Notes under the pieces: model-generated
What the model saw: the letters and a program-made list of their open reading frames with translations, nothing else
The model's database searches: none
What the model was told of the DNA's origin: nothing
NCBI GenBank assembly: GCA_000146045.2
Contig: BK006948.2
Location: 352,001 to 416,000, forward strand
Length of the DNA: 64,000 nucleotides
Direction: 5' to 3'
Origin: TPA_inf: Saccharomyces
Lineage: Eukaryota
Shown here: piece after piece, positions 1,864 through 7,947 of the stretch
Position numbering within the stretch: position 1 is the first letter of the stretch
Layout: the number at the start of each line of letters is the position of its first letter
Translations under genes and position numbers: made by a program

Positions 1864-2040
1864 TACCATTTTTAAATATATTTCTACTTTCTACTTAATA
1901 GCAATTTTAATTAATCTAATTATTTACAAGTCACCAATGACTGACTAAACAATTGAAAGAGTCCTTTGTACAACAAAAAAAAAGATACTTGTCGCTGACG
2001 CTCAAAAAATATTTATATAGCAAAAGTGCACGACAAAAAA

Positions 2041-2113
2041 TGCTTCCAATCGGATTTGAACCGATGATCTCCACATTACTAGTGTGGCGCCTTACCAACT
2101 TGGCCATAGAAGC
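2041..2113 (-). tRNA. tRNA-Thr (anticodon AGU), 73 nt, no intron, no encoded CCA.
   Basis: The reverse complement reads GCTTCTATGGCCAAGTTGGTAAGGCGCCACACTAGTAATGTGGAGATCATCGGTTCAAATCCGATTGGAAGCA. The acceptor stem is GCTTCTA/TGGAAGC. The anticodon stem is CCACA/TGTGG with loop CTAGTAA, giving anticodon AGT. The T-arm carries GGTTCAAATCC (B box). Confidence 0.85.
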
Positions 2114-2128
2114 AGTAAACCGTTATTT

Positions 2129-3330: not shown

Positions 3331-4536
3331 TTATTGTTCCACCGACTTGAATAATTGTACAACTTTAGCTAACATTTTAACTAATATTTTAACGCATCTT
3401 ATTATCAAGTATTGTAACAATACGTATCATCTTACTATCTCAATGGAAGCATTCTCTTATACATACTGAGTCAAATATCTTGAAGACTCATTATAATGTG
3501 TAATAAAAGGACAAAGCAGCGTAGAAGCCTTAAATAACTATGCACTTGGACACATGTCTTCTCACGACGTGTTCAAATATAATGATTTTTCAATCAGCTT
3601 TGAAGTTCAATACAAACTTCTTCACTAAAGGATAATAAGCAATCATTATTAATGGCAAAATCGGTTTTCAATTTCTTTCATTTTGAAATATTGGAGTATT
3701 TAAACCGTTTTGTGTATCATTCACAATACTTTCTTCCATACTACTGCTCTCTTGAAGTTCTTGGGAAGAGCCGAAAAAATTGGACATTTCAATATTGGTG
3801 CTTATACATTACTACTGACAAGAAGATAATAAAAAAGAAAGATTTCTATCACCGATAGTGAGCTCTTTAGAAAACTGAACGCAATAAATTTTATGCCTCA
3901 TAACGTCTTGGGGCGCGAGAATTTACTGACGTAAACAGATCCGGCTCAAAAAGTCGTCTTTACCTTTCTATCATCTCGTCGCATAATTATTAAATTAACT
4001 CACAATTTCTCACAATTTATATCATGCCTTTTTTGTCAGTTCGTGGCCTTGCCAGTGGAGATATAACAACTACTTCGTAAAGGGTCCCGAAAGAAATGAA
4101 AGAATTACTCATTTGATATAAAAATTTGCATGGTATAACAGAAGTGAAACGCGGGGACAACCATGATCTTTTTTGAGTAGGATAATTTTTTATGTCGGTT
4201 TGATATATTATAAAGCAAGTCATATATAATATCATACTGATTTTAACCAAACGATAATCAATCAGAAAAAGAAAATAAATAAAAAATCTAGCACATAGTA
4301 TTTCAGTACCCTTATGGTTCTGACCTCAGAAATTATTCAGCCGCTTGTTATCTTATAGTACGTTTTATATCGTAATTTTCCTGACATTTTGGGCAGAAAT
4401 CCTTTACTCCTGATATAATAAACGACGTTTTTTTTCCTGTGTTTTTTATGTTACTATAAGAAATGCAAAAAAAGAAACAATAGAAAAAGGCAGTGACAAA
4501 AATACTAATCAGAACGTTGAAAACAAATCAATAGTT

Positions 4537-4956
4537 TTGATAATGGTAGCATCATCGATCAATGAAGAATCCTCTTTGGCGGTAAACTTGACAAGCGATG
4601 TAGAGAAGGCTTCGAAAACTTTGTTTAAGGCATTCGAAAAGTCATACGCAAATGACTACTTGATGAAAAAGTTCTTCCATATCCCAATCACTGAAAAAGT
4701 TTCAAGGGCAAGAATAAATGCAATGATACATTACTACACGACGTGCTACCATGACTTGGATGGTGAAATTGCTGAGGCAAATGATTTCGATGCAGTCGCA
4801 ATATGGAGCCGCCCTGGGTGCCACTTGCCTGCTACACTATCTGACGACGAGTCTTTCAATAAGATTTTTTTTTCACGACTTGACTGTGAGGAAGCACGAA
4901 GTCATGCCTCTGGGAATGGACTATTACTACCTTTATGCCATCGGAAAAGATCCTAG
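4537..4956 (+). CDS. Small uncharacterised protein (YOR012W-like). This is the upstream half of a frame-split gene (see findings).
   Basis: The ORF is 139 codons from the track start, and ATG codons occur at codons 1 and 3. It ends about 85 nt after a T9 run where a +1-frame ORF continues with protein-like sequence. Confidence 0.5.
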   Translation: MIMVASSINEESSLAVNLTSDVEKASKTLFKAFEKSYANDYLMKKFFHIPITEKVSRARINAMIHYYTTCYHDLDGEIAEANDFDAVAIWSRPGCHLPATLSDDESFNKIFFSRLDCEEARSHASGNGLLLPLCHRKRS

Positions 4957-5221
4957 CCATCCCGAAATTAGAGGTTCAGTCAGAAAAATACTCGAAAAAT
5001 ATAAAACCAAAGCAGACAAGGCCAATTGCGCCCTTGCTCTCGAGGCTATTTCGGAGCACGCAAGATCTGTGTACGAATATTTCGGTTTCAAAACCTATTT
5101 GGTGTTTCAGTTCGGGGTTGGAGAAGTGAACTCCAAAGGAGAACCCGATCCGCAGGGGAAGGGATTCACGGCCTACTTGATGCTCTACCACAAAGATGCA
5201 GACACCATCTTTCACGCCTGA
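4874..5221 (+). pseudogene. Downstream, +1-frame continuation of the YOR012W-like gene, corresponding to the dubious overlapping ORF YOR013W/IRC11 (the track shows this frame open from 4751).
   Basis: The frame beginning immediately after the T9 run reads HDLTVRKHEVMPLGMDYYYLYAIGKDPSHPEIRGSVRKILEKYKTKADKANCALALEAISEHARSVYEYFGFK..., which looks like non-random protein sequence. Removing 1 T joins it to the upstream ORF. Confidence 0.4.
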
Positions 5222-5673
5222 TTTTCTTCTAAAAATTTTATAGACATTTATTGTATGTATGGAGCATATAGCAACAATAAAACTTAGACCAACATTTTTT
5301 GCCGGGTCACAACCCCCTATCCCGGCTGCGAGAAAGGAAAAAAAAAAGTATCAGACAATTGATTATCAAAGAGTATGTGAAACTACGCTTTGTTTTCCAC
5401 TTCAATTGGTAGGCATGTCAATACGTCTCGTTTCTTCATTGGAAAACTCTTCATTTCAAGGATAAACCATCGTCGCCGTAAGTATTTTGGGTTTCATTTC
5501 CTTCCCCCCTCGATTTTGCTTTTTTTTCCTTTTTTTGTTAGATAAAAATATAAACCCTTCTCCATATACCTGTTCACCTCAATACCGTCTTTAACTGGCT
5601 TTTTTATTTTGTATAAAAGTTCTACTTATTAAGATCAATAGGCACGTGCTATTTTCGAACATCCACTTTCAAT

Positions 5674-7947
5674 ATGATGCGTGGTTTCAAGCAAAGATTA
5701 ATAAAGAAGACCACCGGGTCTTCTTCTTCTTCAAGCAGTAAAAAGAAGGACAAAGAGAAGGAAAAAGAAAAAAGTTCCACTACCTCATCCACATCAAAGA
5801 AGCCCGCTTCGGCTAGTAGCTCTTCCCACGGGACTACTCACAGTTCTGCCAGCAGTACCGGATCAAAGTCTACAACTGAGAAGGGCAAGCAATCTGGTAG
5901 TGTTCCCTCGCAAGGGAAGCATCATAGTAGCTCTACATCAAAAACAAAAACAGCGACGACCCCTTCTTCCAGCAGCAGTAGCAGTAGAAGTTCAAGTGTC
6001 AGTCGCTCCGGTTCAAGCTCCACAAAGAAAACAAGTTCAAGAAAAGGACAAGAACAGTCCAAACAATCGCAACAGCCATCACAATCTCAAAAGCAAGGAT
6101 CTTCTTCATCATCTGCCGCTATAATGAACCCCACTCCAGTACTCACTGTTACTAAGGACGACAAAAGCACTTCTGGTGAAGATCATGCACATCCTACTTT
6201 GCTGGGGGCAGTATCCGCTGTTCCATCATCTCCCATTTCAAATGCTTCAGGTACAGCAGTTTCTTCTGATGTAGAAAATGGTAATAGTAATAATAACAAT
6301 ATGAATATTAATACTAGTAATACTCAGGATGCAAACCACGCCTCCTCACAAAGTATCGACATTCCGAGATCATCACACTCATTTGAGAGACTACCAACAC
6401 CCACAAAACTTAACCCTGACACAGATTTAGAGTTAATTAAGACTCCCCAACGTCATTCTTCATCTAGATTCGAGCCATCTAGATATACGCCATTAACGAA
6501 ATTGCCAAATTTTAATGAAGTTTCTCCTGAAGAAAGAATCCCTTTGTTCATTGCCAAAGTTGACCAGTGTAACACTATGTTTGACTTTAATGATCCAAGT
6601 TTTGACATTCAAGGTAAAGAGATTAAAAGAAGCACCTTAGATGAGCTAATAGAATTCCTTGTAACAAATAGGTTCACTTACACGAATGAGATGTACGCTC
6701 ATGTGGTGAACATGTTCAAAATCAATCTGTTTAGACCTATTCCACCACCAGTAAATCCAGTTGGTGACATTTATGACCCAGATGAAGATGAACCTGTTAA
6801 CGAACTAGCCTGGCCTCATATGCAAGCTGTTTACGAATTCTTTTTAAGGTTTGTGGAAAGTCCTGATTTCAATCATCAGATTGCTAAACAATATATTGAT
6901 CAGGACTTTATTTTAAAGTTACTGGAATTATTTGATAGCGAAGATATCAGAGAAAGAGACTGTTTGAAAACGACACTGCATAGAATATATGGGAAGTTCT
7001 TATCATTAAGAAGCTTTATTCGTCGGTCGATGAATAATATTTTTTTGCAATTTATTTATGAGACTGAGAAGTTTAACGGTGTGGCAGAATTGTTAGAAAT
7101 TTTGGGTTCCATAATTAATGGATTTGCACTTCCATTAAAGGAAGAGCACAAGGTTTTCTTGGTGAGGATATTGATACCATTACACAAGGTCCGTTGTTTA
7201 TCATTATACCACCCTCAGTTGGCTTACTGTATCGTTCAATTTCTCGAAAAAGATCCTTTATTAACCGAAGAGGTAGTTATGGGCTTACTGCGTTATTGGC
7301 CAAAAATAAATTCCACAAAAGAGATAATGTTTCTAAATGAAATCGAGGATATTTTTGAAGTGATCGAACCGCTGGAATTTATTAAAGTAGAAGTTCCGTT
7401 ATTTGTTCAATTAGCTAAGTGTATTTCTTCTCCACATTTCCAAGTGGCGGAAAAGGTTTTAAGTTATTGGAATAATGAATATTTCTTAAACTTATGTATC
7501 GAAAATGCCGAAGTCATCCTACCCATTATATTTCCTGCATTATATGAATTAACTTCTCAGTTAGAGCTAGATACAGCAAATGGCGAAGATAGCATTTCAG
7601 ACCCTTACATGCTTGTTGAGCAAGCAATCAATTCTGGTTCGTGGAATAGGGCAATTCATGCTATGGCATTCAAGGCATTGAAAATTTTTCTGGAAACAAA
7701 CCCAGTATTGTACGAAAACTGTAATGCATTGTACTTATCAAGTGTAAAAGAAACTCAACAGCGTAAGGTGCAACGTGAAGAAAATTGGAGCAAACTTGAA
7801 GAATATGTAAAAAATCTAAGGATTAACAATGATAAGGACCAATACACAATCAAAAACCCAGAATTAAGAAACAGTTTCAACACAGCAAGTGAGAATAACA
7901 CATTAAATGAAGAGAACGAAAATGATTGTGACAGCGAGATACAGTGA
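5674..7947 (+). CDS. RTS1: PP2A B56 (B') regulatory subunit, 757 aa. It has a Ser/Thr-rich low-complexity N-terminus followed by the conserved B56 core.
   Basis: The N-terminus reads [33 protein letters not shown]. The conserved B56 segment includes ...[18 protein letters not shown]...[13 protein letters not shown].... The length matches. Confidence 0.9.

What the first reader, a model, noticed from the sequence alone, without database searches (positions are those of the whole stretch)
4537..5221. YOR012W-like ORF and an overlapping +1 ORF form one about 227-aa reading frame across a T9 homopolymer.
Frame A (4537-4956) reads ...CHLPATLSDDESFNKIFF up to a run of nine T (4865-4873). The frame shifted by one nucleotide continues immediately with HDLTVRKHEVMPLGMDYYYLYAIGKD... 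for 115 more codons to 5221. Both halves look like genuine protein sequence. Deleting one T joins them into about 227 aa. I recall the whole-genome-duplicate paralog of YOR012W (YDR391C) as about 232 aa, which would match, but that figure is from memory and not checked here. This looks like a recent homopolymer frameshift that split one gene into a short verified ORF plus a dubious overlapping ORF. Alternatively it could be a site of programmed or transcriptional slippage.
Basis: partly seen in the sequence, partly recalled or inferred. Interest (0 to 1): 0.5.

Follow-up and report, generated by a model that had tools for sequence, protein, structure and literature searches.

The report
Acetyltransferase gene split by extra T
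In this yeast strain one extra T in a run of Ts has broken a 225-residue acetyltransferase gene into two overlapping ORFs (YOR012W and IRC11), while most other strains keep the gene whole; this is an ordinary strain-specific frameshift, useful mainly as an annotation fix.

Summary
A T9 run lies at 4865-4873. Frame A (ATG 4543) reads 110 genuine codons up to it, and the +1 frame continues for 115 codons to the stop at 5219-5221.

Removing one T gives a 225-aa protein, not about 227. That protein is identical, residue for residue, to one annotated in many other S. cerevisiae assemblies, all of which carry T8. The S. eubayanus and S. kudriavzevii orthologs are in frame and have an interrupted run (ATTTTCTTT, ATATTCTTT). 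Between species, dN/dS is 0.03-0.08 in both halves.

The protein models confidently (pLDDT 93) as a GNAT N-acetyltransferase. It is 52% identical to Iat4/YDR391C, which was recently shown to be an indolamine N-acetyltransferase. The frameshift truncates it before the predicted acetyl-CoA-binding beta4-alpha3 region, so the 137-aa product is very probably inactive.

T7, T9 and T10 alleles all exist, and some sit on the same 1-kb core haplotype as T8, so the run is a recurrent mutational hotspot.

Programmed recoding is not supported: the out-of-frame arrangement is not conserved and no known shift motif is present. Incidental low-level slippage on U9 cannot be excluded.

Verdict: a polymorphic homopolymer frameshift pseudogene allele. 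It is ordinary in kind and modestly useful.

The parts
4543..4872 (+). Codons 1-110 of the ancestral 225-aa GNAT acetyltransferase gene. This is the genuine part of YOR012W. In the model it covers beta1-beta3, alpha1-alpha2 and the start of helix 103-120.
   Evidence: It is identical to residues 1-110 of the intact P0054. It aligns to orthologs and paralogs.
4865..4873 (+). T9 homopolymer, which is the frameshift site. In the intact allele the run is T8 and encodes I-F-F (ATT TTT TTT C).
   Evidence: Searches show the run. T8 is found in 19 fetched loci with an intact reading frame; 17 of them carry a called 225-aa gene and two (L033, L035) have none called. T7, T9 and T10 are found in others. 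The run is interrupted in S. eubayanus and S. kudriavzevii.
4873..4956 (+). Out-of-frame tail of the 137-aa YOR012W product: 27 nonsense codons (SRLDCEEARSHASGNGLLLPLCHRKRS) plus the stop.
   Evidence: This tail is absent from all full-length homologs in alignment A1.
4874..5221 (+). Codons 111-225 plus the stop of the ancestral gene, now in the +1 frame. It encodes beta4-alpha3 (the predicted acetyl-CoA site), beta5, alpha4, beta6 and beta7, and holds most of the invariant residues.
   Evidence: It is identical to residues 111-225 of P0054. Invariant columns Y128 to Y215 are. dN/dS is 0.03-0.08.
4751..5221 (+). IRC11/YOR013W 'dubious' ORF (156 aa). Its first 41 codons (4751-4873) are an out-of-frame reading of the N-terminal half. 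Codons 42-156 are the real C-terminal half of the acetyltransferase.
   Evidence: It is identical to P0023. Seven ATGs lie upstream of its ATG within the YOR012W ORF, counting the YOR012W start codon itself, so independent initiation is unlikely.

Best explanation
The region encodes a single gene for a 225-residue GNAT-fold N-acetyltransferase. It is the sister copy of IAT4/YDR391C. In this genome, which matches the S288C reference type at this locus, the gene carries a derived +1 T insertion (T8 to T9) in a coding homopolymer.

The insertion shifts the frame after Phe110. Translation therefore yields a 137-aa product made of 110 real residues plus 27 nonsense residues. The other 115 codons are stranded in the +1 frame, where annotators called them the dubious ORF IRC11.

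The truncated product lacks beta4-alpha3 (the predicted acetyl-CoA site) and beta5 to beta7, so it is most likely enzymatically dead. This is an inference.

The T8 run arose from a synonymous TTC to TTT change at some point after S. cerevisiae diverged from S. kudriavzevii and S. eubayanus. It slips recurrently during replication, and T7, T9 and T10 null alleles segregate on several haplotypes, while T8 (intact) is the common and ancestral state.

Shown here: the sequence identity, the polymorphism, conservation across the junction, and the fold. Inferred: the loss of activity, the substrate class (small-molecule or indolamine amines, by 52% identity to Iat4 orthologs), and replication slippage as the cause.
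For: - T9 is present and both ORFs match the public YOR012W and IRC11 proteins.
- The repaired protein equals P0054. The index lists P0054 in 654 blocks of the collection, against 83 for the 137-aa allele.
- All fetched loci that encode P0054 have T8. Loci encoding the 112-, 137- and 113-aa products have T7, T9 and T10.
- A sample drawn through the upstream 68-aa ORF gave 9 T8 and 1 T9.
- S. eubayanus (225 aa, syntenic between an ABC transporter and a B56 gene) and S. kudriavzevii are in frame, with ATTTTCTTT and ATATTCTTT.
- A 26-sequence alignment is continuous across the junction (FNKIFFhDL against consensus FNKIFFDDL), and most invariant residues lie downstream.
- BLASTP to S. kudriavzevii Iat4p gives 52% identity over residues 8-224.
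- dN/dS is 0.03-0.08 in each half.
- The AlphaFold model has pLDDT 93.3 and a GNAT topology. The top Foldseek PDB hits are puromycin N-acetyltransferase (E 1.7e-9) and arylalkylamine, dopamine and polyamine N-acetyltransferases.
- YDR391C/IAT4 is a 232-aa indolamine N-acetyltransferase with measured Km values (PMC12063518).
- One 1-kb core haplotype carries T7, T8 and T9. T9 occurs on at least 5 core haplotypes. A highly divergent haplotype (L003) has T8.
Against: - No Pfam model hits the protein, and the canonical motif A (Q/R-x-x-G-x-G/A) is not clearly present. The enzyme assignment therefore rests on the fold and on the paralog.
- A yor012w/yor013w deletion in CEN.PK lowered anaerobic fitness (PMC2895221). 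If CEN.PK carries T9, that would hint at residual function or a neighbouring-gene effect. Its allele could not be determined here.
- One 2-DE/PMF study lists 'Irc11p' in BY4741 (PMC6723583). This is weak, because the same table lists another protein described only as similar to a dubious ORF (YPR195C).
- Some T7, T9 or T10 calls in long-read or 454 assemblies could be homopolymer sequencing errors. Block counts are not allele frequencies.
Confidence: 0.92

Rival explanations
1. Selected recoding. The T9 allele is expressed as a full-length protein by programmed +1 ribosomal frameshifting on UUU-UUU-U, or by RNA polymerase II slippage that drops one U, and the out-of-frame arrangement is a regulated feature.
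For: - A +1 slip of tRNA-Phe from UUU to UUU, or loss of one U in the mRNA, would produce exactly the wild-type 225-aa sequence.
- Pol II frameshift errors in yeast rise exponentially with homopolymer length (PMC5650487).
- 'Compensatory' low-level frameshifting at indels in runs is documented elsewhere (PMC5009743).
- There is a deletion phenotype in CEN.PK and a weak 'Irc11p' spot in BY4741.
Against: - The out-of-frame state is not conserved. Most strains have T8 and the sister species have an interrupted in-frame run.
- T7 and T10 alleles, which need a different correction, also segregate.
- There is no Ty1/ABP140/EST3-type CUU-AGG-C heptamer and no OAZ1-type stop-codon site.
- The T9 CDS is otherwise identical to intact alleles, which fits a recent mutation rather than an adapted signal.
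Confidence: 0.04
2. Contingency locus. The coding T run is maintained as a reversible on/off mutational switch for the acetyltransferase, as simple-sequence phase variation is in bacteria.
For: - T7, T8, T9 and T10 occur on identical or near-identical haplotypes, which implies repeated switching.
- Reports point to opposite fitness effects of deletion: worse anaerobic fitness in CEN.PK and better stress tolerance in industrial KF-7 (PMC8783499).
Against: - The run is only 8 nt and arose by a single synonymous change. It is absent in S. kudriavzevii and S. eubayanus, so it has not been conserved over the long term.
- Intergenic homopolymers in the same alignment also vary in length, which suggests plain mutational instability.
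- Other, non-reversible disabling alleles appear in the gene models, which looks more like relaxed selection.
- The alleles of CEN.PK and KF-7 are unknown.
Confidence: 0.07
3. Two real genes. YOR012W (137 aa) and IRC11 (156 aa) are independent functional proteins, or two halves of a split enzyme.
For: - Both ORFs are annotated in public records.
- IRC11 is named after a deletion phenotype (increased recombination centres), as its public name implies; the screen itself is recalled from memory.
- 'Irc11p' is listed in a 2-DE table.
Against: - The last 27 residues of YOR012W and the first 41 residues of IRC11 are out-of-frame readings and do not appear in any full-length homolog in alignment A1.
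- Seven ATGs lie upstream of the IRC11 ATG within the YOR012W ORF, counting the YOR012W start codon itself.
- Neither fragment contains a complete GNAT core.
- In the T8 loci with gene calls, a single 225-aa gene is called.
Confidence: 0.02
4. Sequencing or assembly error in the window at a homopolymer.
For: Homopolymers are error-prone on some platforms.
Against: The same T9 on the same haplotype is present in eight other fetched loci, from NCBI assemblies and Logan read-set assemblies; two of those loci come from one assembly.
Confidence: 0.01

Closest known systems
IAT4 / YDR391C (S. cerevisiae indolamine N-acetyltransferase, 232 aa; PMC12063518)
   Same: It has the same family and length class. 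Identity to Iat4 orthologs is 52% over nearly the whole protein, and the GNAT fold matches. Post-WGD species carry two copies and pre-WGD species one.
   Different: The copy in this window is frameshifted in the reference-type strain. Its own activity and substrates are untested. The IAT4 paper does not mention YOR012W.
Other reference-strain split or disabled genes that are intact in other strains, for example AQY2 (YLL052C/YLL053C) and SDC25 (YLL016W/YLL017W). These examples are from my own knowledge and were not checked here.
   Same: One ancestral gene is annotated as two adjacent or overlapping ORFs because of a strain-specific frameshift, and the intact allele is common in the species.
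   Different: Here the lesion is a single-base expansion of a coding mononucleotide run, and the site has mutated repeatedly (T7, T9, T10).
Programmed +1 frameshift genes of yeast (Ty1, ABP140/TRM140, EST3, OAZ1)
   Same: Two overlapping frames must be joined by a +1 shift to give a full-length product.
   Different: In those genes the shift site and the requirement for frameshifting are conserved across species. Here the requirement is absent in most strains and in the sister species, and the known heptamers are absent.
Poly(A)-tract frameshifts rescued by transcriptional slippage in Buchnera and Blochmannia (cited in PMC9375231 and PMC5009743)
   Same: A frameshift sits inside an A/T run of at least 9 nt in an otherwise intact gene, so slippage could restore some product.
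   Different: Those frameshifts are conserved over long periods and RNA heterogeneity has been shown. Neither is shown here, and conservation was tested and is absent.
Bacterial simple-sequence contingency loci (phase variation)
   Same: A coding homopolymer switches the gene on and off by changes of one repeat unit, and multiple lengths segregate.
   Different: There is no evidence of high-frequency reversible switching or of selection maintaining the tract, and the tract is short and evolutionarily young.

Membership tests
GNAT N-acetyltransferases, Iat4/YDR391C subfamily | GNAT fold (beta1-alpha1-alpha2-beta2-beta3-beta4-alpha3-beta5-alpha4-beta6-beta7) | tested here: met
   The AlphaFold model has pLDDT 93.3 and pTM 0.87 with that order of elements. 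Foldseek finds 144 PDB matches at E<=1e-3. The 50 listed are almost all GNAT N-acetyltransferases (one is the Ebony condensation domain), and the top hit is 7k09 at E 1.7e-9.
GNAT N-acetyltransferases, Iat4/YDR391C subfamily | Full-length sequence homology to Iat4/YDR391C orthologs | tested here: met
   52% identity with E 4e-77 over residues 8-224 to S. kudriavzevii Iat4p. 53 homologs, several named Iat4p or 'N-acetyltransferase domain-containing'.
GNAT N-acetyltransferases, Iat4/YDR391C subfamily | Canonical acetyl-CoA motif A (Q/R-x-x-G-x-G/A) or a Pfam GNAT profile match | tested here: inconclusive
   There is no Pfam hit at E<=1. The beta4-alpha3 loop reads PEIRGSVR, with invariant G144 and near-invariant R147, which is not the textbook motif.
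GNAT N-acetyltransferases, Iat4/YDR391C subfamily | Acetyl-CoA-dependent N-acetylation of indolamines | not testable with these tools
   Activity has been shown only for Iat4 itself (PMC12063518).
Strain-specific homopolymer-frameshift (pseudogene) allele | Conspecific alleles are intact in this reading frame and differ there only in run length | tested here: met
   Window minus one T equals P0054 exactly. T8 in 19 fetched loci with an intact reading frame.
Strain-specific homopolymer-frameshift (pseudogene) allele | The outgroup species are in frame, so the frameshift is derived | tested here: met
   The S. eubayanus and S. kudriavzevii orthologs are in frame with an interrupted run. The most divergent S. 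cerevisiae haplotype (L003) has T8.
Strain-specific homopolymer-frameshift (pseudogene) allele | Both halves evolved as one protein under purifying selection | tested here: met
   dN/dS is 0.06-0.10 for the N-terminal half and 0.03-0.08 for the C-terminal half.
Strain-specific homopolymer-frameshift (pseudogene) allele | Loss of function of the frameshifted allele | not testable with these tools
   Inferred from truncation before beta4-alpha3. No expression or activity data are available.
Programmed +1 ribosomal frameshifting (Ty1/ABP140/EST3/OAZ1 type) | The requirement for a frameshift is conserved in orthologs and strains | tested here: not met
   T8 (in frame) is found in most strains, and the sister species are in frame.
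Programmed +1 ribosomal frameshifting (Ty1/ABP140/EST3/OAZ1 type) | A known shift heptamer with a slowly decoded or stop codon in the A site | tested here: not met
   The site is AUU-UUU-UUU-UCA. There is no CUU-AGG-C heptamer and no stop codon.
Transcriptional-slippage-rescued genes | An A/T homopolymer of about 9 nt or more at the frameshift | tested here: met
   T9 at 4865-4873.
Transcriptional-slippage-rescued genes | mRNA length heterogeneity at the run that restores the frame | not testable with these tools
   No RNA data are available. The only information is the general length dependence of Pol II frameshift errors.
Simple-sequence contingency locus | Several repeat lengths segregate on the same haplotype | tested here: met
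   T7, T8 and T9 share one 1-kb core haplotype, and T8 and T9 share another.
Simple-sequence contingency locus | The tract is maintained by selection or conserved among relatives | tested here: not met
   The tract is absent in S. eubayanus and S. kudriavzevii.

The most novel reading that the evidence does not exclude
The coding T8 run may act as a genuine eukaryotic on/off mutational switch for an amine N-acetyltransferase, cycling through T7, T8, T9 and T10 under opposing selection (anaerobic fitness against stress tolerance). In addition, or instead, the T9 allele may still deliver a physiologically meaningful trickle of full-length enzyme through Pol II slippage or +1 ribosomal slippage on U9.
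Probability: 0.08. Interest if true: 0.6.

Novelty: new member of a known kind. Interest (0 to 1): 0.3.

Why it matters
The finding tidies the reference annotation. YOR012W (uncharacterized) and IRC11 (dubious) are two pieces of one gene, and phenotypes attributed to either deletion should be re-read with that in mind.

IAT4/YDR391C has now been identified as an indolamine N-acetyltransferase linked to melatonin synthesis. Most non-laboratory strains therefore carry an intact second copy that BY-series strains (T9) and Lalvin QA23 (T7) lack. This could explain strain differences in N-acetylserotonin or melatonin formation and redundancy in iat4 mutants.

The site is also a clean natural example of recurrent run-length mutation in a yeast coding homopolymer.

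Tried and rejected
- The Pfam scan of the repaired protein found nothing.
- A profile search of PDB sequences gave only marginal hits: 7k09 at E 0.004 and 2qec at E 0.27. Fold comparison was needed instead.
- A literature search for YOR012W, YOR013W and IRC11 found 8 papers that name YOR012W or YOR013W (the IRC11 search added one yeast paper; its other hits are unrelated). None describes the frameshift. The one re-annotation paper that names both ORFs (PMC2447204) is held only as abstract and references, so I could not see what it says.
- Strathern et al. 2013 on Pol II slippage is not held, so I have no number for slippage at a 9-nt run.
- I could not determine the T-run length in CEN.PK or KF-7, the strains with reported deletion phenotypes.
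- I could not fetch an S. paradoxus ortholog. I therefore could not date the TTC to TTT change more precisely than 'after the split from S. kudriavzevii and S. eubayanus'.
- A scan of the promoter for sterol or anaerobic response motifs (TCGTATA, TCGTTYAG, LORE) found none, apart from one loose ATTGTT core.
- The 204-aa public gene models (P0005) that seem to bridge the shift are spliced models over a T9 locus. By my reading the invented intron, of about 64 nt, has no canonical yeast splice signals, so I rejected them as evidence for splicing.

Full report
**Observation**

The window has nine consecutive T at 4865-4873. The ORF that the ORF listing starts at TTG 4537 really begins at ATG 4543 and ends at 4956. 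Its 137-aa product is identical to the public 'uncharacterized protein YOR012W [S. cerevisiae S288C]' (P0068).

The overlapping +1 ORF 4751-5221 encodes 156 aa. [quoted passage not shown]

The frame-A codons for I-F-F end at 4872. The +1 frame then reads HDLTVRKHEV... from 4874 for 115 codons, up to the stop at 5219-5221. Removing one T gives 225 aa.

**Is it one gene?**

That protein is annotated in many S. cerevisiae assemblies (for example AWRI1631 and the S. cerevisiae part of VIN7). The index lists it in 654 blocks of the collection, against 83 blocks for the 137-aa product. Blocks are not allele frequencies.

All ten fetched loci that encode P0054 have T8. A search with the repaired protein found 53 homologs across Saccharomycetaceae. 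Most are 210-250 aa, and several are named 'N-acetyltransferase domain-containing' or 'Iat4p'.

A 26-sequence alignment is continuous across the junction (FNKIFFhDL against consensus FNKIFFDDL). Most invariant positions, from Y128/Y129/L130/G134/G144 through L166/E167 to Y215, lie in the half now encoded in the IRC11 frame. BLASTP to S. kudriavzevii Iat4p gives 52% identity over residues 8-224.

The S. eubayanus ortholog is 225 aa. It sits between an ABC transporter and a B56 phosphatase-subunit gene, and in the window the B56-type ORF at 5674-7947 is the downstream neighbour.

Between S. cerevisiae (repaired), S. eubayanus and S. kudriavzevii, dN/dS is 0.06-0.10 for codons 1-110 and 0.03-0.08 for codons 111-225. 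Both halves therefore evolved as one constrained protein.

**What the protein is**

Pfam gives no hit. A profile search of PDB sequences is only marginal.

An AlphaFold model built on the alignment is confident (mean pLDDT 93.3, pTM 0.87). It has the GNAT order of elements: beta1 14-16, helices 20-30, 35-44 and 55-71, beta2 75-79, beta3 84-89, an inserted helix 103-120, beta4 127-135, alpha3 145-160, beta5 163-169, alpha4 171-179, beta6 183-190 and beta7 208-215.

Foldseek against the PDB returns 144 matches at E<=1e-3. The 50 listed are almost all GNAT N-acetyltransferases. They are led by puromycin N-acetyltransferase (7k09, E 1.7e-9) and include insect arylalkylamine, dopamine, agmatine and polyamine N-acetyltransferases.

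It was shown biochemically to acetylate 5-methoxytryptamine, tryptamine and serotonin (PMC12063518). That paper does not mention YOR012W.

I therefore infer, but have not shown, that the intact 225-aa protein is a small-molecule or indolamine N-acetyltransferase.

**What the extra T does**

The shift falls after F110, inside helix 103-120. The T9 product keeps beta1-beta3 and alpha1-alpha2 and adds 27 out-of-frame residues. It lacks beta4-alpha3, where GNAT enzymes bind acetyl-CoA, and everything after it. It is very probably inactive.

The first 41 codons of IRC11 are an out-of-frame reading of the N-terminal half. Seven ATGs lie upstream of the IRC11 ATG within the YOR012W ORF, counting the YOR012W start codon itself. 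Independent translation of the C-terminal half is therefore unlikely.

**Polarity and population picture**

- S. kudriavzevii has ATA TTC TTT and S. eubayanus has ATT TTC TTT at the I-F-F codons. The S. cerevisiae T8 run (ATT TTT TTT C) therefore arose by a synonymous TTC to TTT change, and the in-frame state is ancestral.
- The most divergent S. cerevisiae haplotype fetched (L003, 34-45 SNPs from the others over about 2.6 kb) is T8.
- Other lengths exist. T7 gives a 112-aa product (Lalvin QA23 and others). T10 gives a 113-aa product. T9 gives the 137-aa product in reference-type and several unrelated assemblies.
- In a sample drawn through the exact protein of the upstream 68-aa ORF, which is less biased with respect to the run, 9 of 10 places were T8 and 1 was T9.
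- Over the 1-kb core (4400-5400; 31 variable sites), one haplotype carries T7, T8 and T9, and another carries T8 and T9. T9 is found on at least five core haplotypes (wider alignment).

This pattern is best explained by recurrent changes of one T at a replication-slippage hotspot. Recombination and some homopolymer sequencing errors, especially in long-read or 454 assemblies, could contribute.

The T9 CDS of the window has no amino-acid difference from the commonest intact allele, so this particular event is recent.

A +1 slip of tRNA-Phe on UUU-UUU-U, or loss of one U during transcription, would recreate exactly the wild-type protein. Pol II frameshift errors in yeast do rise exponentially with homopolymer length (PMC5650487).

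The features that define programmed recoding fail, however. The need for a shift is not conserved in strains or sister species. T7 and T10 alleles would need a different correction. No known yeast +1 heptamer or stop-codon site is present. I therefore treat slippage as possible incidental leakiness and not as a mechanism. It was not testable here.

Two published observations keep the question slightly open:

- A yor012w/yor013w deletion in CEN.PK reduced anaerobic fitness (PMC2895221). The T-run length in CEN.PK is unknown. The ORF lies between the sterol-uptake ABC transporter gene and RTS1, so a neighbouring-gene effect is an alternative. This last point is my inference.
- A 2-DE/PMF table lists 'Irc11p' in BY4741 (PMC6723583). 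The same table lists another protein described only as similar to a dubious ORF (YPR195C), so I give it little weight.

Conversely, deleting YOR012W in the industrial strain KF-7 improved stress tolerance (PMC8783499). Its allele is also unknown.

**Comparison with what is known, and novelty**

This is the familiar class of reference-strain-specific disabled genes that are annotated as two ORFs. Intact 225-aa proteins are already deposited for many strains, so the fact is implicit in the databases.

In the searchable literature I found no paper that states it. One re-annotation paper that names both ORFs could not be read in full.

I rate it a new member of a known kind, with modest interest (0.3). 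The interest comes from the fresh functional link to IAT4 and from the demonstrably recurrent T7/T8/T9/T10 polymorphism.

Noticed in passing
window 3652-3858 (+): A 68-aa ORF upstream is called as a gene in most fetched assemblies. Its exact protein is listed in 94 blocks of the collection. It has no Pfam hit on record. It probably corresponds to the small ORF annotated between AUS1 and YOR012W.
   Followed up: partly
window 2040-2114 (-): A tRNA-Thr (anticodon AGT) gene lies between the end of the ABC-transporter ORF (7-1863) and the locus studied.
   Followed up: no
window 4428-4435, 5338-5347, 5520-5527 and about 5536: The intergenic homopolymers (T8, A10, T8) also vary in length among the fetched strains. 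One strain (L001) has a 10-bp insertion (TCCTTTTTTC) near 5536. Run-length instability is therefore general in this region and not special to the coding run.
   Followed up: partly
public proteins P0005, P0081, P0083, P0084 (locus L048 1501-2179); P0002; P0060: There are gene-model artefacts in public assemblies. The 204-aa models bridge the T9 frameshift with an invented intron of about 64 nt. The 269-aa S. kudriavzevii model and a 246-aa S. cerevisiae model carry N-terminal extensions from upstream ATGs.
   Followed up: partly
public proteins P0071, P0063, P0003, P0065 (same gene, other strains): Other apparent disabling variants of the same gene appear in the gene models: a frameshift after R116, a C-terminal frameshift after G205, a compensated double frameshift across residues 157-187, and an N-terminally truncated model. 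Some come from phased long-read assemblies and may be errors. If real, they suggest relaxed selection on this gene in S. cerevisiae.
   Followed up: no
L003 (GCA_947370505.1), whole locus: One S. cerevisiae haplotype is far more divergent than the rest (34-45 SNPs over about 2.6 kb, against 0-21 among the others) and still has T8 and an intact 225-aa gene. It probably comes from a deeply branching lineage.
   Followed up: no
L014 (PTEQ01, T7) versus L043 (PTER01, T9): Two assemblies with adjacent accession numbers carry nearly the same flanking haplotype but different run lengths (T7 and T9). This could be real heterozygosity or recent mutation, or homopolymer error in the assemblies.
   Followed up: no
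homologs P0044 and P0050 (Kazachstania africana KAFR_0D01340 and KAFR_0D01350): Two homologs in K. africana have adjacent locus tags, which suggests a tandem duplication of this acetyltransferase gene in that species.
   Followed up: no
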